A DNA stretch of 32,000 bases from Candidatus Saccharimonadota bacterium (GCA_000503915.1 CP006915.1:90001-122000); one strand, 5' to 3'; positions 7,124 through 24,740 are shown, counted from the stretch's first letter. The notes: generated by a model not told the origin, from the sequence alone. Numbers and translations are program-made.

Positions 7124-7145
7124 ATGGAGGGCCAGGAGGGGCTTG
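7124..7145. repeat. 22-bp direct repeat, copy 2
   Basis: Identical to 6932-6953. Confidence 0.9.
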
Positions 7146-7201
7146 AACCCAGGACACCCTGCTTAAGAGGCAGGTGCTCTAACCAGCTGAGCTATGGACC
7201 C
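7125..7201 (-). tRNA. tRNA-Lys(CUU)-like gene with mispaired T and acceptor stems
   Basis: Reverse complement reads GGGTCCA TA GCTC AGCTGGTTA GAGC A CCTGC CTCTTAA GCAGG GTGTC CTGGG TTCAAGC CCCTC CTGGCCC T CCA. The D and anticodon arms are perfect. The T stem pairs only 3/5 and the acceptor only 5/7. Confidence 0.6.
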
Positions 7202-7250: not shown

Positions 7251-8816
7251 CTAGAGTTGATCTTTTTTGACGCTGATAAACGCCGCCCATTGACGGACAA
7301 GTCGCAGCACAGTTTTAAGGGGCAGCTCGATCAGCATGTCAAGCGCCAACGCAACAATATTTACCTTGGCGTATTTTTCATTCATATAGCGACCGACGAC
7401 AACAAAAGGCATGTAGAGAAAGTCTCGCACCAGCGTAATGCCGTTTTGAGTCGCTTCGACCGATTCAATCTCACGGATCATACGGCTGAGACGGAAGCCA
7501 AGGAAGCTGGCACCAGATAGGAAGACAAAGAAGATAGTGAGGTGAAGAATATCAAACGAGAAAGCACTCCACAACAACCACGCCACACCACCAAAGACGA
7601 GGATGAAAATCAAGGCGTAGACGAAGTTATAGGCAAATCCAAAGCTCTGGACAGACCGACGTTCAAGCTGGCGTACTCCGCCCTCCTCGTATAACGTGCG
7701 GTCAATCTGCTCCGACAAGCGACGCGTATTGGCAGCCCCAGGTAGGATCAACGTCGCGCGGAGCAGGAGCATGTAGACGGGTGGAAAAATGAGATTGATC
7801 AGCAGCGGTGTCCACAAGATCATTCCAGCTACGATATAGTCGTACGGCACCTCAACCGCAATACCGATCAAGAATTTGGTAATAACGAGAAAGATAACAC
7901 TCCGAACAATACCCTTGTTGACACGACGATTGATCGACTGATAGTCTGTCTCAACCTGTGATTCGTACGCCGAGAGAAATTGTTCGCGGTGGGCGAGCGT
8001 TGCTGGCAACGAGGTGTCTTCATCCATCATATGACGCAAAACGCGCAGGTGTGCACCGCGCCGGTCGACGATACGGTAGAGCTTCTCGGTAGTGGCTGAG
8101 GTAAACAGCGTATCGAGATGCTTGTTGATATCGATATATTCTTGCAGGGCATCGACACTGCGCTGGTAGCGGCGTAGTAGCCCGAGGCGAACAACCGCCT
8201 CATCAGATTTCAAAAGTGCCCGATGGATTGCTACGTAGAGCGATGTTTCGACGTCCGCCGGCTGCGTACCAAAGAGCCGCTGGAAATCAATCGTATCGAG
8301 GAAGTAGCCATGCGCGAACTGAGTAAATGCCTGTAAATAACTGGCGTCATGAAGTAGCCACTCCACTTCAACCGCAAGCACCTCGTACGTCCACTGTTCG
8401 ATTTGCCGATGAGACAAGCCACGCTTGCGATTTAGTGCCGTGTAGGCGGCATAATACCTCGTCGCCAATTGACTTATTTCCTGGACGGTTTTTTCCGAAA
8501 TCGTATCGTTTGCTACATAGCCAGCCTGTGTCAGTTCGATCGCTAGCTCTTCCCCGCTCCGGGCAATATAGTTGGCGTCGTGTACGATAAACAGCCGCTT
8601 ATAAAAACGACGGATAGCACGTTGGAGCAAGACGTGTTCTTCGGTATACTCGGCAGCATTTCGTAGTTGCTCATACGCTGCGGTCAGCGTACTCCCTGCG
8701 CCAACAACGTGAACTTTCTGCTCTTGAGCCAGCTGTTCTTCACGGACAGCCGACTGCTTGCGGGCAGTCTCAAGATGATGGGCCAATTGCTGGCTTAAAT
8801 GATTTAGTTGTGTCAT
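7251..8816 (-). CDS. hypothetical membrane protein (helical soluble N-terminal half, about 5-6 TM helices in C-terminal half)
   Basis: 521-aa ORF flanked by two tRNA genes on the same strand. I recognise no family. Confidence 0.75.
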   Translation of the reverse strand: MTQLNHLSQQLAHHLETARKQSAVREEQLAQEQKVHVVGAGSTLTAAYEQLRNAAEYTEEHVLLQRAIRRFYKRLFIVHDANYIARSGEELAIELTQAGYVANDTISEKTVQEISQLATRYYAAYTALNRKRGLSHRQIEQWTYEVLAVEVEWLLHDASYLQAFTQFAHGYFLDTIDFQRLFGTQPADVETSLYVAIHRALLKSDEAVVRLGLLRRYQRSVDALQEYIDINKHLDTLFTSATTEKLYRIVDRRGAHLRVLRHMMDEDTSLPATLAHREQFLSAYESQVETDYQSINRRVNKGIVRSVIFLVITKFLIGIAVEVPYDYIVAGMILWTPLLINLIFPPVYMLLLRATLILPGAANTRRLSEQIDRTLYEEGGVRQLERRSVQSFGFAYNFVYALIFILVFGGVAWLLWSAFSFDILHLTIFFVFLSGASFLGFRLSRMIREIESVEATQNGITLVRDFLYMPFVVVGRYMNEKYAKVNIVALALDMLIELPLKTVLRLVRQWAAFISVKKDQL

Positions 8817-8905: not shown

Positions 8906-9084
8906 TCACTACATACATTGTACTGCAAATACACGAGCCAGCGAACTTCGGAACTATAATACCAGGTAACAATCCAAGTCCACTGACCTGCCCGTTCTGT
9001 CGAACAGACAGGCGGGGCTACGGGTGCATAAATACAGGGGTAATTATAGCACGTATGACCCGAAGTGCGCTATACTCTTGTCAT

Positions 9085-18145: not shown

Positions 18146-18221
18146 GGCGAGAGTAGTTCAATGGTTAGAACGTCGGGTTGTGGCTCCGAAGACGAGGGTT
18201 CAATTCCCTTCTCCCGCCCCA
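18146..18221 (+). tRNA. tRNA-His(GUG) with encoded G-1 and CCA
   Basis: G GCGAGAG TA GTTC AATGGTTA GAAC G TCGGG TTGTGGC TCCGA AGAC GAGGG TTCAATT CCCTT CTCCCGC C CCA. There is one A-C mismatch in the acceptor. Confidence 0.85.
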
Positions 18222-18224
18222 TAT

Positions 18225-18299
18225 GCGGGTGTCGTATAATGGCTAATATATCTGCCTTCCAAGCAAATGATGCGAGTTCGATTCTCGCCACCCGCACCA
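18225..18299 (+). tRNA. tRNA-Gly(UCC), CCA encoded
   Basis: GCGGGTG TC GTAT AATGGCTA ATAT A TCTGC CTTCCAA GCAAA TGAT GCGAG TTCGATT CTCGC CACCCGC A CCA. Confidence 0.85.
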
Positions 18300-18384
18300 A
18301 AATAATTACTCCAGCTTGTCTGGGGTTATTATTTTGGTATAGGTTGTGTGGATTGTACTTGCATCAGCGAGCGCCAGCGAGCCG

Positions 18385-18478
18385 GATGCGAGTTCGGTGA
18401 AGTGCAGCGAAATTCTGGAAAAGCTTGCTTTTGCCAGAATGAGCAAGCGGAAGTTACAATGCAACATTCTCGCCACCC
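18385..18478 (+). repeat. split duplicate of the tRNA-Gly 3' region
   Basis: GATGCGAGTTCG (18385-18396) and ATTCTCGCCACCC (18466-18478) together equal tRNA-Gly 18269-18293. A 69-nt insert interrupts them exactly within the T-loop. Confidence 0.7.
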
Positions 18479-18581
18479 TAAGTCGCAGCTGGTATAATCA
18501 GGTTGTTCTTCAGCGAGAATACATTGACTACAGGGGTAACCTTACAGTCTGGTTCGTTAACATCTATCCTTAGGAGAAGTC

Positions 18582-20144
18582 ATGTTAAGCATTAGGCGAT
18601 ACATGTTGCCTGGATTATCATTAATCCTTGCATCACTCGTGTTTCCTATCATGTTTTCAACTGGTGCTTATGCCGTGTCTCAATACGACAACGCCTACAA
18701 CCATGTAGATCAGCTGAAAATCGTACAAAACAACTACAACGGTGTTACCTGCGACCCTCTCGACATCACCATGACGTACCAGTCGTATTTGAATAACTCT
18801 GCGAAATGGTACCCGACTACCAGTGCCTTTGCTACAACCATGCAAGCATACAAAAGCTCCTTTGCTCAGGCACGCCAAGCAGGGTCATGGACAGTCAGTG
18901 TCGTATTAGTAAACGACGGAAGTGGTGGCTATACGTCGATAGTGAGAATTAACTGGTTCGAAGATGACCCTGGCAAGCTTGTCTTCAAGGGCACATCACC
19001 TAATACGCAAGTTGAATACCAATCCACTACAGATACCCAGGGACACTATGCATTCATATCGACGATTGATTTTGCACGTCCCTATGGATCGACAGATGCT
19101 GGAAATTGCACTCCTCATGTTTACGCAGTCGGTGACTTCGTAGCTAACGCCAACGAGGAAACCTACGCAGTTGTTTCTACTGAAGGTGCATTTTCTTGGA
19201 CGCCAACCAGCTCATCAGAAATGGGACACTGGGCAAACCTATTTGCTACAAGCACAAATGTTCAGTATCCTACAGGGTATGAAGGAGCGGCTATTTCAGC
19301 CAACTCACCCACGGCCACGTATGTGGCTATGGGTGATTCATTCTCAAGCGGTGAAGGGAACCCTCCATTTGAGTATGGAACGGACTCAGCTTCAGACAAG
19401 TGCCACCGAAGTCCCAATGCATACCCACGTTTACTGCAGAGTGATTCCAGCCTCAGTCTTGGATCAACTGCCTTCGTGGCGTGTTCGGGAGCAACAACCG
19501 ATGATGTCTTAAATGGCGGAAGCGGTGCGGGCAACTGGGGTGAAGGTCCGCAGGTGGATGCATTGTTATCAGACACGGAGGTTGTCACGATTACGATAGG
19601 AGGAAACAATATCAAGTTCGCTGAGTTTGCACATGCTTGCCTGTTTGGGAGCTGCAACAGCTCATCCGATGAGTACCAGGAGTCCTGGGACGTCATGACG
19701 GATTTGACACGGAGCGACTACTTGCCAAGCCAGCTTGACTCTCTCTTTTCGGATATCGCTTTTCACCTCTGGCAAAATACAAGTGTCAAGGTCTATGTCG
19801 TCGGCTACCCCTATGTGATCACACAGGCGTCCTGGAACGACAGGGGAGTCGGAATTTGTTCCGATTTTGACGAGGATGAAGCAATAGCTGCCGAAACTAT
19901 TGTCTCGAAACTTGACACCGTCATCGAGACTGCTGTGACAGATTTTGACGACTCACGATTTGTTTACGTAGATCCGCTAGCGACAGGAAGCCCATTCCTA
20001 GGCCACGAACTCTGCAGAAACGGATCATATTTCAACGGGATTGAGACGTCAGGCGCACTCGGCGGTGACGACGCTTACGTCTTCCACCCGGATACTAATG
20101 GTCAGCAAGCATATGCCGACTTGATTAGGAGCTACATGAGCTAG
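18582..20144 (+). CDS. secreted protein: unknown N-terminal domain + C-terminal SGNH/GDSL hydrolase, paralog 1
   Basis: Signal peptide ...FSTGAYA|VS. SGNH blocks AMGDSFSSGEG, ACSGATT, TIGGNN and FHPD..G. SD TAGGAGAA upstream. Confidence 0.85.
   Translation: MLSIRRYMLPGLSLILASLVFPIMFSTGAYAVSQYDNAYNHVDQLKIVQNNYNGVTCDPLDITMTYQSYLNNSAKWYPTTSAFATTMQAYKSSFAQARQAGSWTVSVVLVNDGSGGYTSIVRINWFEDDPGKLVFKGTSPNTQVEYQSTTDTQGHYAFISTIDFARPYGSTDAGNCTPHVYAVGDFVANANEETYAVVSTEGAFSWTPTSSSEMGHWANLFATSTNVQYPTGYEGAAISANSPTATYVAMGDSFSSGEGNPPFEYGTDSASDKCHRSPNAYPRLLQSDSSLSLGSTAFVACSGATTDDVLNGGSGAGNWGEGPQVDALLSDTEVVTITIGGNNIKFAEFAHACLFGSCNSSSDEYQESWDVMTDLTRSDYLPSQLDSLFSDIAFHLWQNTSVKVYVVGYPYVITQASWNDRGVGICSDFDEDEAIAAETIVSKLDTVIETAVTDFDDSRFVYVDPLATGSPFLGHELCRNGSYFNGIETSGALGGDDAYVFHPDTNGQQAYADLIRSYMS
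18712..19345 (+). repeat. 634-bp block identical to 22404-23037
   Basis: The in-frame translation and the out-of-frame/antisense track ORFs are the same in both copies. Flanks on both sides are clearly diverged. Confidence 0.85.
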
Positions 20145-20167
20145 TGACTTACCATCGCTGAAGAACA

Positions 20168-20192
20168 ATACCCTCAGGTTTCCTGAGGGTAT
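20168..20192 (+). terminator. stem-loop after SGNH paralog 1 (no clear U-tract)
   Basis: ATACCCTCAGG ttt CCTGAGGGTAT. Confidence 0.45.
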
Positions 20193-20240
20193 CTTCAATC
20201 TGTGATATATTAACTTACGTAATGTGGTAAACTTACTTAT

Positions 20241-20729
20241 ATGACCAGTAAAAAGGTTTTTCCAAAACAAAAATCCAGACTAAAATCATTTAACGCTGTC
20301 TATAGTTTAGTGTTTATCATTTCTTTTTTTGTGATCTATTTAATTAGTCTTTTCCTGCCGTTCGCTAGTGGATACGCTGCTTTCCCTCTCAAGATTATCC
20401 AATGTGGTCATCAGCCATATATAACAAGTAATTTCATGGGAGACTACACCTATACCAAGCCGGGTGATGGACTATACGCGGGACCAGATATTTTTACACA
20501 GGGCAGTGATCTGTATTGCAATAAGCAAGATGTGGAGGAGCGAGGATACAGTTTACATTCTCGTCCTGAAAGGTGCCATACTAATGCGGATCAACTGACA
20601 GAATGTGCTAGCGGAGGTGATGGGTACTGGTCTATATTTACATTCGTTATGATAATAATCGTAATTTCTTTAGCAATAGCTTACCTGCTGACACCTAATT
20701 TACTCAAAGCAAAGCTCAAAAAGATTTAA
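20241..20729 (+). CDS. hypothetical membrane-anchored protein (N- and C-terminal TM helices, 4-Cys exposed domain)
   Basis: 162-aa ORF, AT-rich. TGGTAAACT lies 7 nt upstream of the ATG. Confidence 0.65.
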   Translation: MTSKKVFPKQKSRLKSFNAVYSLVFIISFFVIYLISLFLPFASGYAAFPLKIIQCGHQPYITSNFMGDYTYTKPGDGLYAGPDIFTQGSDLYCNKQDVEERGYSLHSRPERCHTNADQLTECASGGDGYWSIFTFVMIIIVISLAIAYLLTPNLLKAKLKKI

Positions 20730-20730
20730 A

Positions 20731-20775
20731 GTTGCGAAGTGGGTCGGTGAGAGGGCACCACAGCATGAGCGTTAT
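20731..20775 (+). repeat. cassette-boundary repeat, copy A
   Basis: GTTGCGAAGTGGGTCGGTGAGAGGGCACCACAGCATGAGCGTTAT. It starts 2 nt after the stop of 20241-20729. Confidence 0.85.
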
Positions 20776-20785
20776 AAAAGAACTA

Positions 20786-21264
20786 CTAGCGAGAATGCTC
20801 GCGGAGATTGTTTATTAGCAGAACTGGCTGGTTAGTATTTATATGGCTACGTATATTTACCTTTTGTAGGAAATCCGGAAGCAAATCGCTTGTTGCAGGA
20901 TCGATGAACGACACACGAGTAAGCTCACGGCCATGGCTAGTTGCGGATAAATCTATATCACGCTGAAAATCCGCCGTATTTGTGACATGGAATAATAGTT
21001 CCATTTTTTCCGATTGTTTACCATTCCTGTGTGTAAAGATAAATTGCTGCATAAATAACAGTCGTCCAATTTTTGGTTTAATACCTAGTTCTTCTTCAAA
21101 CTCTCGGATCAGCCCGTCATTGAGAGATTCGCCAGATCTAAGCCTCCACCAGGAATTGCCCAAAAATCTGACTCTCCGTTCGTATCTCTATCGCGATGCT
21201 TTACCGCAAAAACATGACCGCTCTCGTCGACTACAATGCCACGTACATTAATTCGTCGTTCCAT
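20786..21264 (-). pseudogene. Nudix hydrolase interrupted by a 1-nt frameshift
   Basis: Frame a reads MERRINVRGIVVDESGHVFAV...FWAIPGGGL. Frame b continues ...SGESLNDGLIREFEEELGI. Together they make a Nudix box. The frames switch within 21134-21144. Confidence 0.7.
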
Positions 21265-21299
21265 TGCTTGAATTATACCATGGAGGCTTAGTCGAGAAA

Positions 21300-21344
21300 G
21301 TTGCGAAGTGCGTCGGTGAGGGGGCACCAAGCATAAGCATTATC
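21300..21344 (+). repeat. cassette-boundary repeat, copy B
   Basis: GTTGCGAAGTGCGTCGGTGAGGGGGCACCAAGCATAAGCATTATC. Confidence 0.85.
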
Positions 21345-21346
21345 AT

Positions 21347-21372
21347 CTCTGTTAATTCAGAGTTTTTGTTTT
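21347..21372 (+). terminator. terminator-like hairpin directly after repeat B
   Basis: CTCTG ttaatt CAGAG followed by TTTTTGTTTT. There is no plus-strand CDS upstream of it. Confidence 0.4.
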
Positions 21373-21390
21373 ATTTGATATGATTGAAGT

Positions 21391-22128
21391 ATGACCGAGT
21401 TACTCTATTTAGCTAATTTCAATGTCGAAATGTGTGAAGCAGAGGTTATTGCAATTGATACTCTCGAAGATGGACGTAGTGATGTAATTCTCGATAAGAC
21501 CTGCTTCTACCCTAGAGGCGGTGGACAAGATTGGGATAAAGGTGAAATCCTTAGCGGCAACTCTTACTTTGACATAGACGAGACTCGATTAGATGAAACG
21601 GGCACTGTGCACCATATTGGTCACTTCACGAGTGGAATGTTCAACGTTAGGAACCAAGTTTCCGGTAAAGTTGATCACGATCGCCGATTAATTAATACAC
21701 GCCTACACTCGGCCGGCCATGTCATCGATATGGCGATTAATAGTCTTGAGCTAGACTGGATAGCCACAAAAGGTCAGCACTATCCAGATTTATCTGCTGT
21801 GGAATATCACGGCACTTGGCAGCCAGAACAAGCTGAGAAGCTAAAATCTGGTATTGAGTCTCGCGTTAATGAATTCATCCGTGGAGCTACGGATAATGAG
21901 CTGAGGTTTATGCCGGTTGAGGAAATGCACACAATTTGCCGTCATGTACCCGATAATATTCCAAAAAACAAACCGGGGCGAGTTGTTGTCTACGCTGATA
22001 ATTTTGGTATTCCTTGTGGTGGCACTCATGTGAAAAACTTGCAAGAAATCGGACTAGTCAAGATACCCAAGCTGAAAGAGAAAAAAGGCGTGATTCGAGT
22101 TACTTACACAGTTGATGAAATTAATTAA
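21391..22128 (+). CDS. alanyl-tRNA editing protein (AlaX-like, tRNA synthetase second additional domain)
   Basis: HxxxH (RLHSAGHVID) and CxxxH (CGGTHV) zinc motifs, 245 aa. Confidence 0.75.
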   Translation: MTELLYLANFNVEMCEAEVIAIDTLEDGRSDVILDKTCFYPRGGGQDWDKGEILSGNSYFDIDETRLDETGTVHHIGHFTSGMFNVRNQVSGKVDHDRRLINTRLHSAGHVIDMAINSLELDWIATKGQHYPDLSAVEYHGTWQPEQAEKLKSGIESRVNEFIRGATDNELRFMPVEEMHTICRHVPDNIPKNKPGRVVVYADNFGIPCGGTHVKNLQEIGLVKIPKLKEKKGVIRVTYTVDEIN

Positions 22129-22133
22129 TCACA

Positions 22134-22177
22134 GTTGCGAAGTGTATCGGTGAGGGGCATAAGTATAAGCGTTCTAG
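22134..22177 (+). repeat. cassette-boundary repeat, copy C
   Basis: GTTGCGAAGTGTATCGGTGAGGGGCATAAGTATAAGCGTTCTAG. It starts 5 nt after the alaX-like stop. Confidence 0.85.
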
Positions 22178-22273
22178 TATATGATATAATCAATTCGTTC
22201 TTCAGCGACGCTCCATAACCTCGAAGAAGAATCTGAGGTTTACGTTCATTAACAATCTGTCTTAGGAGAAATC

Positions 22274-23776
22274 ATGCTAAATGTTAGGCGATATGTGGTA
22301 TTGGGACTATCGCTCATTCTCTCGCTACTCGTATTACCTGCCCTGTTTTCAACTGGTGCATATGCCGCATCTCCATACGACAACGCTTACAATCATGTTG
22401 GCGAGCTGAAAATCGTACAAAACAACTACAACGGTGTTACCTGCGACCCTCTCGACATCACCATGACGTACCAGTCGTATTTGAATAACTCTGCGAAATG
22501 GTACCCGACTACCAGTGCCTTTGCTACAACCATGCAAGCATACAAAAGCTCCTTTGCTCAGGCACGCCAAGCAGGGTCATGGACAGTCAGTGTCGTATTA
22601 GTAAACGACGGAAGTGGTGGCTATACGTCGATAGTGAGAATTAACTGGTTCGAAGATGACCCTGGCAAGCTTGTCTTCAAGGGCACATCACCTAATACGC
22701 AAGTTGAATACCAATCCACTACAGATACCCAGGGACACTATGCATTCATATCGACGATTGATTTTGCACGTCCCTATGGATCGACAGATGCTGGAAATTG
22801 CACTCCTCATGTTTACGCAGTCGGTGACTTCGTAGCTAACGCCAACGAGGAAACCTACGCAGTTGTTTCTACTGAAGGTGCATTTTCTTGGACGCCAACC
22901 AGCTCATCAGAAATGGGACACTGGGCAAACCTATTTGCTACAAGCACAAATGTTCAGTATCCTACAGGGTATGAAGGAGCGGCTATTTCAGCCAACTCAC
23001 CCACGGCCACGTATGTGGCTATGGGTGATTCATTCTCGAGCGGCGAAGGTAATCCAGCATTTGAAGCAGGAACCGACACCAACGACGCCAACGAGTGTCA
23101 TCGGAGTTCGCAGGCATATCCGCACCTCCTTCAGAACATATCGAGTTTGAATCTGGGAACGATGGCATTCGTAGCGTGTTCGGGAGCAACGACAGCAAAT
23201 GTCCTCTACGGAGGTACGTCTGATGGCAACTGGGGTGAAGGCCCCCAAGTGGACGCACTGTCTTCAGACACTGAAGTTGTCACGATCACGATTGGCGGTA
23301 ACGACGCGGGGTTCCAGGAATACCTTCAGGGGTGCGTTATAGCTCCCTGTGGCCCCTCTACGGTTACGTACAACGCGATGATTGATCTGATAGATTCCTC
23401 ATCATTCTTGAGTAATCTTGAAACGACGTATGAAGAGATCCTGGATGGTGCCACATCTACTAATGTGTACGTGATCGACTACCCCTACTTGACGGCAGAC
23501 GATGCCGGATACTGCGGGGTGATCGATTTCTCGGGCGCAAGGGACATTCAGGTAGCACTGAATTCAACAATTGCGCTAGCAGTAGCAAACGTGAGAGCTG
23601 GATCTACCGACTACAGTGACAGGCTGCACTACGTCTCCACCAATTACACGGGGAGTCCGTTCGAAGGACAGCACCTATGCAACGGTGGTACGTCCGACTT
23701 CGGCAGCACTACCTTCCACCCCAACGTTCTCGGACACACTCATTACGCGGAGGTGGTAGCTGCAGCCATCGAGTAA
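22274..23776 (+). CDS. secreted protein: unknown N-terminal domain + C-terminal SGNH/GDSL hydrolase, paralog 2
   Basis: Signal peptide ...FSTGAYA|AS. AMGDSFSSGEG, ACSGATT, TIGGND and FHPNVLGH. Confidence 0.85.
   Translation: MLNVRRYVVLGLSLILSLLVLPALFSTGAYAASPYDNAYNHVGELKIVQNNYNGVTCDPLDITMTYQSYLNNSAKWYPTTSAFATTMQAYKSSFAQARQAGSWTVSVVLVNDGSGGYTSIVRINWFEDDPGKLVFKGTSPNTQVEYQSTTDTQGHYAFISTIDFARPYGSTDAGNCTPHVYAVGDFVANANEETYAVVSTEGAFSWTPTSSSEMGHWANLFATSTNVQYPTGYEGAAISANSPTATYVAMGDSFSSGEGNPAFEAGTDTNDANECHRSSQAYPHLLQNISSLNLGTMAFVACSGATTANVLYGGTSDGNWGEGPQVDALSSDTEVVTITIGGNDAGFQEYLQGCVIAPCGPSTVTYNAMIDLIDSSSFLSNLETTYEEILDGATSTNVYVIDYPYLTADDAGYCGVIDFSGARDIQVALNSTIALAVANVRAGSTDYSDRLHYVSTNYTGSPFEGQHLCNGGTSDFGSTTFHPNVLGHTHYAEVVAAAIE
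22404..23037 (+). repeat. 634-bp block identical to 18712-19345
   Basis: See the partner feature. The offset is exactly 3692 nt. Confidence 0.85.
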
Positions 23777-23798
23777 TTTTAGAATCACTGAAGAATAT

Positions 23799-23822
23799 CC
23801 CCCGGCTCGGGCCGGGGGTTTT
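23799..23822. terminator. rho-independent terminator after SGNH paralog 2
   Basis: CCCCCGGC tcgg GCCGGGGG TTTT. Confidence 0.7.
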
Positions 23823-23826
23823 CAAT

Positions 23827-24138
23827 TTAAATAAGTAACATCCGTACAAGGTGTGTTAGCAGAAAACCTACAACTACAGCTCCAAAGCCGATAGCTATAG
23901 CTTGAGTTAAGCCTGCTGGGGTTTTTGTAGTTAAACGAGTTGAATACGTATATGTGATAAATCCGCCGCATGCCAGCAATATTATTAATTCTGTCACTAG
24001 TCCCCCGGCTGACGGTAAAGGAGAATAAGATTGATCATTCGATAAGAATACGCCAAGTCCAATAGCAGCGATAAGGAGAACAACAAGGCTAATAATTATG
24101 TTGTTACTTTGTTTAGATTGTGTGGTATTTTTCATCAT
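23827..24138 (-). CDS. hypothetical small membrane protein (3 TM helices)
   Basis: 103-aa hydrophobic ORF. TGCTAATAT lies 6 nt upstream of the ATG. Confidence 0.6.
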   Translation of the reverse strand: MMKNTTQSKQSNNIIISLVVLLIAAIGLGVFLSNDQSYSPLPSAGGLVTELIILLACGGFITYTYSTRLTTKTPAGLTQAIAIGFGAVVVGFLLTHLVRMLLI

Positions 24139-24189
24139 ATCTATATATTAGCATAGCCTTTATAGTTTACCTGTCTATTATTCCATCGT

Positions 24190-24233
24190 GTTGCGAAGTG
24201 TGCTGGCGAGGAGACACCAAGCTGCTTATGCTT
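24190..24233 (+). repeat. cassette-boundary repeat, copy D (most diverged)
   Basis: GTTGCGAAGTGTGCTGGCGAGGAGACACCAAGCTGCTTATGCTT. Confidence 0.75.
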
Positions 24234-24255
24234 AATAACCTCTGGGAGGTTATTT
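24234..24255 (+). terminator. hairpin directly after repeat D
   Basis: AATAACCTC tgg GAGGTTATT then T: a perfect 9-bp stem. Confidence 0.4.
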
Positions 24256-24269
24256 GATATAATCAGCAT

Positions 24270-24536
24270 ATGAAATATAGAACTATAAAGTTTGCACGGA
24301 TATCTTTAGCGGCTCTAGCCATTATTCTTGGTCTGCTATTTGTCCTTGGGTTTGCGAAAGACATATCGCATGAACGATGTAGCGGCCTTATGGGTGTAGA
24401 AACATCTTGTGTAGAGCAATATGCCATCATGCCATTAATAGTCATCGGTTTACCTCTTGGCGCTCTCTTTGTAGCAATACTTCTCACGGAGTACATGTCT
24501 AAAGATAATCAGAAGAAACCCAAAAAGCGTCGTTAG
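24270..24536 (+). CDS. hypothetical small membrane protein (2 TM helices, basic tail)
   Basis: 88-aa ORF. TGATATAAT lies 6 nt upstream of the ATG. Confidence 0.6.
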   Translation: MKYRTIKFARISLAALAIILGLLFVLGFAKDISHERCSGLMGVETSCVEQYAIMPLIVIGLPLGALFVAILLTEYMSKDNQKKPKKRR

Positions 24537-24537
24537 A

Positions 24538-24571
24538 GTTGCGAAATGTGTCGGTGAGGGGCACCAAATAT
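24538..24571 (+). repeat. cassette-boundary repeat, copy E
   Basis: GTTGCGAAATGTGTCGGTGAGGGGCACCAAATAT. It starts 2 nt after the stop of 24270-24536. Confidence 0.85.
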
Positions 24572-24663: not shown

Positions 24664-24740
24664 GCCCCGGTAGCTCAGTTGGATAGAGCAGAGGACTTCT
24701 AAGCCTAAGGTCGCTGGTTCAAGCCCAGCCCGGGGTACCA
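24664..24740 (+). tRNA. tRNA-Arg(UCU), CCA encoded
   Basis: GCCCCGG TA GCTC AGTTGGATA GAGC A GAGGA CTTCTAA GCCTA AGGTC GCTGG TTCAAGC CCAGC CCGGGGT A CCA. The anticodon stem has only 3 central Watson-Crick pairs (27-43 G-A, 31-39 A-G). Confidence 0.8.

What the first reader, a model, noticed from the sequence alone, without database searches (positions are those of the whole stretch)
18582..23776. Secreted SGNH hydrolase paralogs share a 634-bp block of identity with abrupt edges
18712-19345 and 22404-23037 appear identical at nucleotide level. The in-frame protein and the overlapping out-of-frame and antisense ORFs in the track are all the same. The signal-peptide region upstream is clearly diverged. 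The GDSL catalytic half downstream drops first to moderate and then to low similarity (520 versus 500 aa). Sharp 100%-identity boundaries inside otherwise diverged paralogs indicate recent gene conversion or recombination. They conserve an N-terminal domain of unknown function while the esterase/lipase domains differ. As 3.7-kb-spaced direct repeats, the blocks could also mediate deletion or duplication of the intervening cassettes. If the host-association guess is right, secreted lipase/esterase diversity could matter for acquiring or attacking host envelope components.
Basis: seen in the sequence. Interest (0 to 1): 0.65.

Follow-up and report, generated by a model that had tools for sequence, protein, structure and literature searches.

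The report
Gene conversion between two secreted lipase genes
Two anciently diverged secreted lipase/esterase genes of a tiny Saccharibacteria (TM7) genome carry a 634-base stretch that is identical letter for letter, because recombination recently copied a fast-evolving N-terminal domain from one gene into the other; related bacteria show the same pattern.

Summary
Window 18712-19345 and 22404-23037 match at 634 of 634 bases. Outside the block the longest identical run is 17 nt.

The block has 0 differences at about 145 synonymous sites, while both coding flanks are saturated (pS 0.57-0.89). This is a recent gene-conversion tract, not selection.

The two SGNH catalytic domains belong to different old subfamilies. 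Each has orthologues elsewhere at 60-75% identity, and those orthologues' N-domains are only 20-25% identical to this one. The N-domain is therefore hypervariable between genomes but identical within this genome, which is concerted evolution.

Another lineage shows the same pattern: three SGNH types share a 96-100% identical N-domain, with identity ending at the same GDSFSSGEGN junction.

Independent short-read assemblies all break at the block edges. One carries a variant in which the tract starts about 45-60 bp further left, so conversion appears ongoing.

The genome is almost certainly RAAC3 (845,464 bp; 101-bp reads, 500-bp inserts). Exact identity of the block interior cannot be proven without reads.

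The N-domain has no Pfam family and no PDB fold match. That it is a shared targeting or adhesion module is inference.

Gene conversion is a known process, so interest is moderate.

The parts
18147..18299 (+). tRNA-His(gtg) and tRNA-Gly(tcc). These form the left border of a variable slot that ends at tRNA-Arg(tct) 24664-24740.
   Evidence: ARAGORN and Rfam. The same tRNA-His, tRNA-Gly ... tRNA-Arg(tct) slot is only about 1.1 kb in related contig L020.
18490..18498 (+). Extended -10 box TGGTATAAT of paralogue A. Paralogue B has TGATATAAT at 22182-22190.
   Evidence: Read from the sequence. It lies inside the 27-nt direct repeat D4. Promoter function is inferred.
18503..18516 (+). 5' arm TTGTTCTTCAGCGA, at the predicted transcript start of paralogue A. 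It is perfectly complementary to 20155-20168.
   Evidence: Inverted repeat I3. The same core CTTCAGC(G/A) follows the -10 box in homologous loci of other genomes.
18582..20144 (+). Paralogue A, 520 aa. It comprises a signal peptide (aa 1-31, 18582-18674), the N-domain (aa 32-245, 18675-19316) and an SGNH hydrolase domain (aa 246-520, 19317-20141).
   Evidence: ORF list. Pfam PF13472 scores 37.3 bits against a cut-off of 32.9 at aa 249-509. PDB 4hyq phospholipase A1 matches at 3.3e-19. The N-domain HMM scores 8e-57.
18712..19345 (+). Identity block, copy A (634 bp). It covers codons 44-255, which is nearly the whole mature N-domain plus YVAMGDSFS of the SGNH domain.
   Evidence: 634/634 identity. 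There are 0 of 145 synonymous differences.
18668..18711 (+). Polymorphic left margin. The window has A-type bases here. Independent contig L002 has B-type bases at all 10 sites where A and B differ, while keeping the A-type flank up to 18667.
   Evidence: alignment A5. Contig L003 of GCA_003537595.1 stops exactly at 18667.
20155..20168 (+). 3' arm TCGCTGAAGAACAA, 10 nt after the stop codon of A. A terminator-like hairpin (ACCCTCAGG/CTGAGGGT, 20170-20190) follows directly.
   Evidence: The CGCTGAAG motif follows the stop codon in 8 of 9 related loci.
20241..20729 (+). 162-aa predicted membrane protein between the paralogues, with no family assignment.
   Evidence: Pfam gives only a weak, sub-threshold hit.
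20786..21330 (-). NUDIX hydrolase gene split by a frameshift into two overlapping ORFs (20786-21163 and 21109-21330).
   Evidence: Translations. NUDIX is a weak Pfam hit in the gene calls of L006 and L007, whose DNA is identical to the window.
21391..22128 (+). AlaX-like tRNA-editing protein (tRNA-synt_2c C-terminal part plus tRNA_SAD).
   Evidence: Pfam.
22195..22208 (+). 5' arm of paralogue B (TCGTTCTTCAGCGA). Its partner TCACTGAAGAAT lies at 23785-23796, followed by the terminator hairpin 23799-23818 and a T run.
22274..23776 (+). Paralogue B, 500 aa, with the same architecture as A. Its SGNH domain is 46-51% identical to that of A.
   Evidence: Pfam PF13472 scores 48.6 bits. PDB 4hyq matches at 7e-17, with the GDS, ACSGA and GGND blocks aligned.
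22404..23037 (+). Identity block, copy B (634 bp).
   Evidence: Independent contigs start exactly k-1 or k bases before 23037: L010 at 23008 and L008 at 22911.
23827..24138 (-). 103-aa predicted membrane protein, convergent with paralogue B. Small convergent membrane ORFs also follow the SGNH gene in L013 and L014.
   Evidence: No sequence similarity was shown, so any functional link is speculative.
20728..24567 (+). Five same-strand copies of a roughly 30-50-nt repeat, GTTGCGAAGTGnGTCGGTGAGGGGCACCA(AGCATAAGC), starting at 20728, 21297, 22131, 24187 and 24535. They separate the genes of the slot.
   Evidence: The same 30-mer occurs in the same tRNA slot in three other metagenome contigs, L015, L017 and L020.

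Best explanation
Two secreted two-domain hydrolases sit 3.7 kb apart in a variable slot flanked by tRNA genes. Each consists of a Sec-type signal peptide, a roughly 215-aa N-domain and an SGNH lipase/esterase domain. Their catalytic domains belong to two old, separately conserved subfamilies.

A recent non-reciprocal homologous recombination event (gene conversion) copied one gene's N-domain coding sequence over the other's. This produced a 634-bp tract of perfect identity. The tract starts 13 codons into the mature protein and ends just after the catalytic-serine motif GDSFS.

This is one round of a continuing process. Each conversion restores perfect homology and makes the next one easy, so the N-domain evolves in concert within a genome while diverging very fast between genomes.

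The likely functional consequence is inferred, not shown. Enzymes with different substrate pockets are kept attached to one and the same rapidly changing recognition or anchoring module, and any adaptive change in that module spreads to all paralogues.

Shown: the identity, the silent-site pattern, the domain discordance, the recurrence in other lineages, and the polymorphic tract edge. Inferred: the RecA-type mechanism, the direction of transfer, and the role of the N-domain.
For: 1. Identity is 634/634, and the longest identical run elsewhere is 17 nt.

2. The block has 0 differences at 145 synonymous sites, against pS 0.57 upstream and 0.74-0.80 downstream. Conservation is therefore not due to protein-level selection.

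3. The histories of the two domains disagree. The A catalytic domain has orthologues at 61-75% identity and the B catalytic domain has a different set at 62-75%. A versus B is only 46-51%. The N-domains of all these orthologues are 20-25% identical to the window's, yet A versus B is 99-100%.

4. The pattern recurs. P0063, P0069 (with P0067, P0077 and P0088) and P0033 (with P0035) carry three catalytic types that are 42-49% identical, with 96-100% identical N-domains. Identity ends at GDSFSSGEGN or 46 aa further on. There are two N haplotypes, each shared across catalytic types. Older cases show N 79-86% against C 40-49%.

5. Independent assemblies support the edges. Logan k=31 contigs break exactly 30 nt inside the block edges, and MEGAHIT k=127 contigs break 127 nt inside.

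6. Contig L002 joins the A-type flank to B-type bases at all 10 differing sites in 18668-18711. Contig L003 stops at 18667. This indicates a second haplotype with a longer tract, or a recombinant junction.

7. Both enzymes keep the catalytic blocks GDS, ACSGA, GGN(N/D) and FHP, so both look functional.
Against: The reference was closed from 101-bp reads with 500-bp inserts, and the authors say some short repeats were not fully resolved. A few real differences inside the block could therefore have been collapsed.

No reads were available, so copy number, phasing and the frequency of the L002 haplotype are untested.

The direction of transfer is unknown.

The same-genome origin of the P0033, P0063 and P0069 group is inferred from shared haplotypes. 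It was not shown on one contig.

The N-domain's function is unsupported by any experiment or by a known fold.
Confidence: 0.85

Rival explanations
1. Assembly artefact. The two genes have similar but distinct N-domains, and one consensus sequence was pasted into both places during manual closure of a short-read metagenome assembly.
For: The block (634 bp) is longer than the library insert (500 bp). The paper states that some repeats could not be fully resolved. No assembly on hand traverses the block.
Against: Assemblers with k=31 and k=127 break exactly at the block's edges, so the edge k-mers are truly shared by two contexts. With silent sites saturated in the flanks, the copies must be nearly identical for any collapse to happen at all, and that still requires recent conversion. 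Unrelated datasets show the same 96-100% N-domain identity between different catalytic types.
Confidence: 0.07
2. Recent whole-gene duplication followed by replacement of both ends. The genes are young duplicates, and the 3' catalytic part and the 5' leader and signal peptide of one copy were later overwritten by foreign DNA, in the manner of C-terminal displacement in polymorphic toxins.
For: Family members combine the N-domain with unrelated C-terminal parts: SGNH, an HExxH protease, a Cys-rich domain, or membrane anchors. Some members sit in mobile regions.
Against: This needs two independent replacements, because both flanks are saturated. One conversion tract explains both edges. In the other lineage the shared N-domain and signal peptide are common to three catalytic types with different right-hand breakpoints, which fits repeated conversion better.
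Confidence: 0.06
3. Nucleotide-level purifying selection. The block is kept identical because it holds an overlapping gene or a structured RNA or DNA element.
For: Identical out-of-frame and antisense ORFs exist in both copies.
Against: Those ORFs are an automatic consequence of the identity. Rfam finds nothing in the block. Orthologous N-domains elsewhere are only 20-25% identical, so no conserved embedded element exists. Selection would not give edges this sharp with 0 of 634 changes.
Confidence: 0.02

Closest known systems
Gene conversion and concerted evolution of bacterial paralogues (for example tufA/tufB, or Helicobacter babA/babB segment exchange; named from general knowledge)
   Same: Sequence passes non-reciprocally between dispersed paralogues in one genome. 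The tracts are sharp-edged and identical, silent sites included. Paralogues within a genome are more alike than orthologues between genomes.
   Different: Here the tract is confined to one domain of a two-domain secreted enzyme. That domain is the most variable part of the family between genomes. The partners belong to two anciently separated catalytic subfamilies.
Streptomyces secreted SGNH/GDSL lipases (phospholipase A1, PDB 4HYQ; S. rimosus lipase, 5MAL; S. scabies esterase, 1ESC)
   Same: The C-terminal domains align with them at 3e-19, 1e-12 and 1e-3. The YVA(L/M)GDS(Y/F)SSG, CxRS, ACSGAxT and TIGGND(A)GF blocks are conserved.
   Different: The solved enzymes are single-domain proteins of about 235-306 aa. 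The window proteins carry an extra domain of about 215 aa at the N-terminus. Some annotated Streptomyces 'SGNH/GDSL hydrolase family' proteins of 445-483 aa also match the N-domain profile (P0073 at 6e-8).
Polymorphic toxin systems (Rhs, CdiA and similar)
   Same: A shared N-terminal part is joined to variable C-terminal enzymatic parts. Identity is lost abruptly at the junction. Recombination reshuffles the modules. Small membrane-protein genes lie directly downstream.
   Different: There is no dedicated secretion system or demarcation motif. Export is apparently by a Sec signal peptide. Both C-termini in this genome are homologous SGNH domains. No immunity function has been shown. The shared N part is hypervariable between species rather than conserved.
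Integron cassette arrays and CALINs (considered only for the five-copy intergenic repeat)
   Same: Short, same-orientation repeats separate single-gene units in a variable region.
   Different: No integrase is present in the window. The repeat is conserved in sequence rather than in structure, and it does not fold better than shuffled sequence. Its end resembles a tRNA 3' end plus flank.

Membership tests
SGNH/GDSL hydrolase (Pfam PF13472 Lipase_GDSL_2) | Profile score above the curated cut-off | tested here: met
   A scores 37.3 bits and B scores 48.6 bits, against a cut-off of 32.9.
SGNH/GDSL hydrolase (Pfam PF13472 Lipase_GDSL_2) | Block I nucleophile Ser in the GDS motif near the start of the domain | tested here: met
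   YVAMGDSFSSGEG is present in both proteins and aligns to YVALGDSYSSG of 4hyq and 5mal.
SGNH/GDSL hydrolase (Pfam PF13472 Lipase_GDSL_2) | Block II Gly and block III Asn (GxND), the oxyanion-hole residues | tested here: met
   ACSGATT is present in both. A has TIGGNN and B has TIGGND, and these align to TIGGNDAGF of 4hyq.
SGNH/GDSL hydrolase (Pfam PF13472 Lipase_GDSL_2) | Block V catalytic His | tested here: inconclusive
   FHPD in A and FHPN in B lie near the C-terminus and align with each other. The printed PDB alignments stop before this block, so the assignment rests on position and motif only.
SGNH/GDSL hydrolase (Pfam PF13472 Lipase_GDSL_2) | Esterase or lipase activity | not testable with these tools
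   This needs enzyme assays.
Gene conversion between paralogues | An identical tract far longer than flanking divergence allows, with silent sites included | tested here: met
   The tract is 634 bp and the next longest run is at most 17 nt. There are 0 of 145 synonymous differences against pS 0.57-0.89 in the flanks.
Gene conversion between paralogues | Phylogenetic discordance between the tract and the rest of the gene | tested here: met
   The catalytic domains group with different orthologue sets, whereas the N-domains are identical to each other and 20-25% identical to all orthologues.
Gene conversion between paralogues | Non-reciprocity and donor direction | not testable with these tools
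   This needs an outgroup strain that carries the pre-conversion state. L002 only shows B-type bases entering the A context.
Gene conversion between paralogues | Both copies verified in the reads (double coverage, phased interior) | not testable with these tools
   No read data are available. Independent contigs verify only the edges.
Polymorphic toxin system | Shared N-terminal region with variable C-terminal effector domains across the family | tested here: met
   The N-domain is joined to SGNH, an HExxH/TSP3 protease-like part, a Cys-rich domain of about 90 aa, or membrane-anchored regions.
Polymorphic toxin system | Cognate immunity gene directly downstream | tested here: inconclusive
   Small membrane ORFs follow the gene in the window, L013 and L014. 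They show no detectable similarity to each other or to any family.
Polymorphic toxin system | Dedicated secretion or delivery apparatus (T5SS, T6SS, T7SS or Rhs shell) or a pre-toxin demarcation motif | tested here: not met
   Only a Sec-type signal peptide is present. No such domains appear in Pfam scans.
Integron or CALIN (for the intergenic repeat) | IntI integrase nearby, and attC sites defined by imperfect inverted repeats that fold | tested here: not met
   No integrase is among the window's ORFs. Folding z-scores of the five copies range from -0.9 to +0.9.

The most novel reading that the evidence does not exclude
The N-domain is a previously undescribed, fast-evolving recognition or adhesion module. 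It has no Pfam family and no PDB fold match, despite a confident model. Saccharibacteria may use it to direct a set of interchangeable secreted effectors (lipases, proteases, others) to one target, such as the surface of their actinobacterial host or their own envelope. Within-genome gene conversion would keep all effectors matched to that target, making the family a Sec-exported, polymorphic-effector-like system and a candidate determinant of host specificity. The conserved complementary 5' and 3' mRNA ends, and the mobile, tRNA-linked cassette context, would belong to the same system.
Probability: 0.25. Interest if true: 0.7.

Novelty: new member of a known kind. Interest (0 to 1): 0.5.

Why it matters
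Saccharibacteria are obligate epibionts with tiny genomes. What decides which host they attach to, and how they take lipids or envelope material from it, is an open question.

A secreted domain that diverges to 20-25% identity between relatives, yet is kept base-for-base identical on different lipases within one genome, behaves like an interface under an arms race. That gives a concrete and cheap target for binding and structural studies.

The case is also a practical warning. The repeat breaks every short-read assembly at this locus, so members of this family are systematically truncated or missing in MAGs.

As a process, gene conversion between paralogues is well known, so the general-biology novelty is limited.

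Tried and rejected
Searches that found nothing:
- The word-indexed protein search with the N-domain found nothing, and with its profile found only one of the proteins the profile was built from.
- An exact look-up of the 520-aa protein failed.
- Two genome-contig scans and a metagenome scan with the protein were empty.
- Two viral-contig scans and tblastn against phage genomes were empty.
- Two alignments were too variable for pattern scans.

Structure:
- Single-sequence AlphaFold of the full protein was useless (pLDDT 32).
- The 18-sequence alignment gave a good N-domain model (pLDDT 84.9, pTM 0.84).
- That model had no PDB match (best E 0.67). It had one match to an unnamed viral protein, A0A345N5S7 (E 3.9e-5, TMq 0.55), which I could not identify.

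Ideas considered and not adopted:
- The five-copy repeat as integron attC sites. There is no integrase and no significant fold.
- The repeat as a tRNA T-arm and acceptor fragment. Only its last roughly 16 nt resemble a tRNA-Gly 3' end plus flank.
- Membrane-anchored family members as inovirus pIII-like adsorption proteins. P0001 lies next to a rolling-circle Rep gene, but no Zot-like ATPase or PHROG hit was found, so this stays a lead only.

Inconclusive tests:
- Covariation in the 5'/3' complementary arms is not significant with four sequences.
- RNAalifold on the 5' leaders predicted no consensus structure.


Full report
OBSERVATION

At offset 3692, window 18712-19345 and 22404-23037 are identical at 634 of 634 positions. 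The last mismatch upstream is at 18711 and the first downstream is at 19346. Everywhere else in the two loci the longest identical run is 16-17 nt.

The ORFs are 18582-20144 (520 aa) and 22274-23776 (500 aa). They align at 69% overall.

A codon-wise Nei-Gojobori analysis gives the following:
- Codons 1-43 (signal peptide and start of the mature protein): pS 0.57, 70% aa identity.
- Block, codons 44-254: 0 synonymous differences at 145 synonymous sites.
- Codons 255-345: pS 0.74, 72% aa identity.
- Codons 346-520: pS 0.80, 34% aa identity.

Both flanks are saturated at silent sites, so what similarity they keep is protein-level only. The block's identity cannot be due to selection on the protein. 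P is about 1e-53 for the silent sites alone.

WHAT THE GENES ARE

Both proteins have the same layout:
- A typical signal peptide, ending ...STGAYA before V or A.
- A domain of about 215 aa that starts at the mature N-terminus and ends in NxQYPTGYEG.
- An SGNH hydrolase domain.

The SGNH assignment rests on Pfam PF13472 scoring above its cut-off in both. It also rests on matches to Streptomyces phospholipase A1 (4HYQ, 3e-19 and 7e-17), S. rimosus lipase (5MAL) and S. scabies esterase (1ESC). The GDS, ACSGA, GGN(N/D) and FHP motifs are kept in both.

The block's right edge falls 9 residues inside the SGNH domain, just after GDSFS.

The N-domain has no Pfam match. An AlphaFold model built on an 18-sequence alignment is confident (pLDDT 84.9, pTM 0.84). 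It consists of a hairpin, two helices, and eight further strands. It has no PDB match (best E 0.67) and one match to an unnamed 497-aa viral protein (E 3.9e-5, TMq 0.55).

SOURCE AND THE ARTEFACT QUESTION

Proteins of the window lie on an 845,464-bp NCBI contig. That is the exact length of the closed RAAC3 (TM7/Saccharibacteria) genome of Kantor et al. 2013. That genome has GC 0.49 and was built with idba_ud from 101-bp paired reads with 500-bp inserts, then manually curated. The authors admit that some short repeats were not fully resolved (PMC3812714).

A 634-bp repeat is longer than the insert, so the interior could hold a single consensus.

Four other assemblies of the same population all break at the block:
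- Logan k=31 contigs span 19316-22433 and start at 23008. These ends lie exactly 30 nt inside the block edges.
- MEGAHIT k=127 contigs start at 19219 and 22911, exactly 127 nt before the right edges.

The edges are therefore real features of the reads, and two contexts enter and leave the block. The interior remains untested, because no reads were available and the block-only product could not be looked up.

Because silent sites in the flanks are saturated, the copies must be nearly identical for assemblers to fail here at all. The biological conclusion does not depend on exactly 100.0% identity.

A POLYMORPHIC TRACT EDGE

MEGAHIT contig L002 carries the A-side flank (murA-like gene, tRNAs, A promoter, A signal peptide) up to 18667. 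It then has B-type bases at all ten A/B-differing sites in 18668-18711, and it ends at 18778.

Position 18778 is exactly the end of the first 127-mer shared with copy B, if identity starts at 18652. Copy B's own contig, L006, ends at the homologous base.

Contig L003 of GCA_003537595.1 ends exactly at 18667, as expected at a branch between two haplotypes.

A and B share only 16 identical nt at that point (18652-18667). A graph chimera without supporting reads is therefore unlikely.

The population thus contains one of two things. Either there is a copy-A haplotype with a longer tract (at least 694 bp), or there is an A::B recombinant junction. Either way, recombination between the two genes is recurrent.

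TWO OLD SUBFAMILIES AND ONE HYPERVARIABLE DOMAIN

A search with A's catalytic domain found 349 relatives at E <= 1e-10. Most are 440-485-aa proteins from Saccharimonadales and Patescibacteria MAGs, and some are from Streptomyces.

A profile of the N-domain detects it in more than 60 of them. The two-domain architecture is therefore common, although the N-domain is too divergent for pairwise searches.

Identities to the window proteins:
- A's catalytic domain against its orthologues (P0023, P0026, P0027, P0025, P0028, P0029, P0030): 61-75%. These orthologues are 41-44% identical to B.
- B's catalytic domain against its orthologues (P0109, P0107, P0105, P0122): 62-75%. These orthologues are 42-45% identical to A.
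- N-domains of all these orthologues against the window's N-domain: 20-25%.
- Within the window: N-domains 99-100% identical, catalytic domains 46-51% identical.

This inversion is the signature of concerted evolution of a fast-evolving module. Orthologues are alike in the C-domain and unlike in the N-domain, while the two paralogues are the reverse.

RECURRENCE ELSEWHERE

Among the retrieved proteins, three catalytic types share 96-100% identical N-domains and signal peptides. The types are P0063; P0069 with P0067, P0077 and P0088; and P0033 with P0035. They are 42-49% identical to one another.

Identity ends at GDSFSSGEGN in two of the comparisons and 46 residues further on in the third. Two N-domain haplotypes exist, and each is shared by different catalytic types.

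Further pairs show N 79-86% against C 40-49%, consistent with older events.

Across all pairs with a detectable N alignment, the median N identity is 27% and the median C identity is 44%. Only 972 of 4,656 pairs have an alignable N-domain at all.

I could not place the members of the first group on one contig, because the look-ups were exhausted.

WIDER FAMILY AND CONTEXT

The exhaustive search with the N-domain alone found about 19 clusters. In these the same domain, always directly after the signal peptide, is joined to one of four C-terminal parts:
- an SGNH domain;
- an HExxH/TSP3 protease-like region;
- a Cys-rich domain of about 90 aa;
- long membrane-anchored regions.

Some members lie in mobile contexts:
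- P0001 sits next to a rolling-circle Rep gene.
- P0126 sits between two serine recombinases, together with a Rep, a DUF2726 and an S24 repressor-like gene.

In syntenic relatives the family member occupies other nearby positions. P0008 and P0025 lie between SHMT and the pilin genes.

In the window the two genes lie in the tRNA-His/tRNA-Gly to tRNA-Arg(tct) slot. That slot is 6.4 kb here but about 1.1 kb in contig L020. Parts of it have lower GC than the surrounding sequence.

MECHANISM

The best-supported account is homologous recombination between the two genes, resolved as conversion. The left end lies in the fairly similar region that codes for the end of the signal peptide and the start of the mature protein. 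The right end lies in the strongly conserved GDSFSSGEGN-coding stretch.

Repeated rounds keep the N-domains identical within a genome. I infer that selection favours one common, rapidly changing recognition or anchoring domain on enzymes with different pockets. The catalytic residues are intact in both, and the last 175 residues are only 34% identical.

The 3.7-kb direct repeats could also delete or amplify the intervening genes: the membrane protein, the frameshifted NUDIX gene and the AlaX-like gene. L002 is compatible with that, but it is not proof.

COMPARISON WITH KNOWN SYSTEMS AND VERDICT

Gene conversion between bacterial paralogues is well established. The C-domains are ordinary members of the SGNH family.

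The resemblance to polymorphic toxins is only partial. The shared N part, the variable C parts and the small downstream membrane ORFs fit. However, there is no delivery apparatus, no demarcation motif and no demonstrated immunity.

I rate this as a new member of a known kind. It is a clean, recurrent and population-polymorphic case of domain-restricted concerted evolution, involving an undescribed hypervariable secreted domain in Saccharibacteria.

Interest is 0.5. The process is ordinary, but the domain is a good candidate for host-interaction studies.

Noticed in passing
window 18503-18516 with 20155-20168; window 22195-22208 with 23785-23796; also L001, L013, L021, L023, L025: In seven genomes the SGNH genes of this family have a -10 box followed within about 7-9 nt by (T)GTTCTTCAGC(G/A). 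A complementary (T)CGCTGAAGA(A/G) lies 5-11 nt after the stop codon, directly before a terminator hairpin. The arms pair over 8-14 bp, and the extensions outside the 8-nt core differ between loci but stay complementary. This suggests pairing of the mRNA 5' and 3' ends, or a shared binding site. The 5' leaders also share a hairpin-like CCGTAGG...TTACGGTC segment. With four sequences the covariation is not significant, and RNAalifold found no consensus.
   Followed up: partly
window 20728-20760, 21297-21329, 22131-22163, 24187-24219, 24535-24567; L015 298-327(-), L017 1233-1262, L020 977-1006: A 30-nt sequence, GTTGCGAAGTGTGTCGGTGAGGGGGCACCA, often followed by AGCATAAGC, occurs five times on the same strand between the genes of the tRNA-Gly to tRNA-Arg slot. 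It occurs nowhere else in the window. Nearly the same 30-mer sits in the same tRNA slot in three other metagenome contigs, usually right after the stop codon of a small membrane-protein gene. It does not fold significantly and matches no Rfam family. Its end plus tail (GCACCA AGCATAAGC) equals the 3' end of tRNA-Gly plus its flank in L020. It could be an att-like recombination scar or site that multiplies with each inserted gene.
   Followed up: partly
window 18384-18477; L020 629-647 and 1172-1190: Downstream of tRNA-Gly the window holds decayed pieces of the tRNA-Gly 3' half: GATGCGAGTTCG, then about 67 nt, then ATTCTCGCCACCC. L020 has a perfect 19-nt direct repeat of the tRNA-Gly 3' end flanking a roughly 540-bp segment. 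This looks like the footprint of integration at tRNA-Gly. A further imperfect repeat, GCATCAGCrAGCrC..GCGAGC, lies at 18363 and 24619, near the two ends of the slot.
   Followed up: partly
window 7124-7177 and 8985-9018, compared with L002 11655-11713 and L003 11545-11603: Two independent assemblies differ from the window next to tRNA-Lys. They repeat window 7124-7177 on both sides of a 57-nt insert, and the insert contains 34 nt identical to window 8985-9018 in the opposite orientation. This is a small structural variant or an assembly difference beside the 521-aa ORF of unknown function (7251-8816), which is flanked by tRNA genes.
   Followed up: no
window 20786-21330 (-): The NUDIX hydrolase gene between the two paralogues is split by a frameshift into two overlapping ORFs. 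The same sequence is present in independent assemblies, so it is probably a real pseudogene or a programmed shift.
   Followed up: no
L011 9293-13608; L025 3566-15302: Family members in other organisms lie beside rolling-circle replication initiator genes (PF23343; phrog_3419 at 1e-20), DUF2726 genes and large serine recombinases. In L011 the membrane-anchored member follows a run of very small overlapping ORFs. That layout recalls filamentous-phage structural modules, with the N-domain protein in the place of an adsorption protein. No Zot-like ATPase or other phage hallmark was found.
   Followed up: partly
window 18042 (end of contigs L004 and L005): Two Logan contigs from different runs both stop at window 18042, about 100 nt upstream of tRNA-His and well before the block. 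The reason is unknown. It could be another repeat or a strain polymorphism.
   Followed up: no
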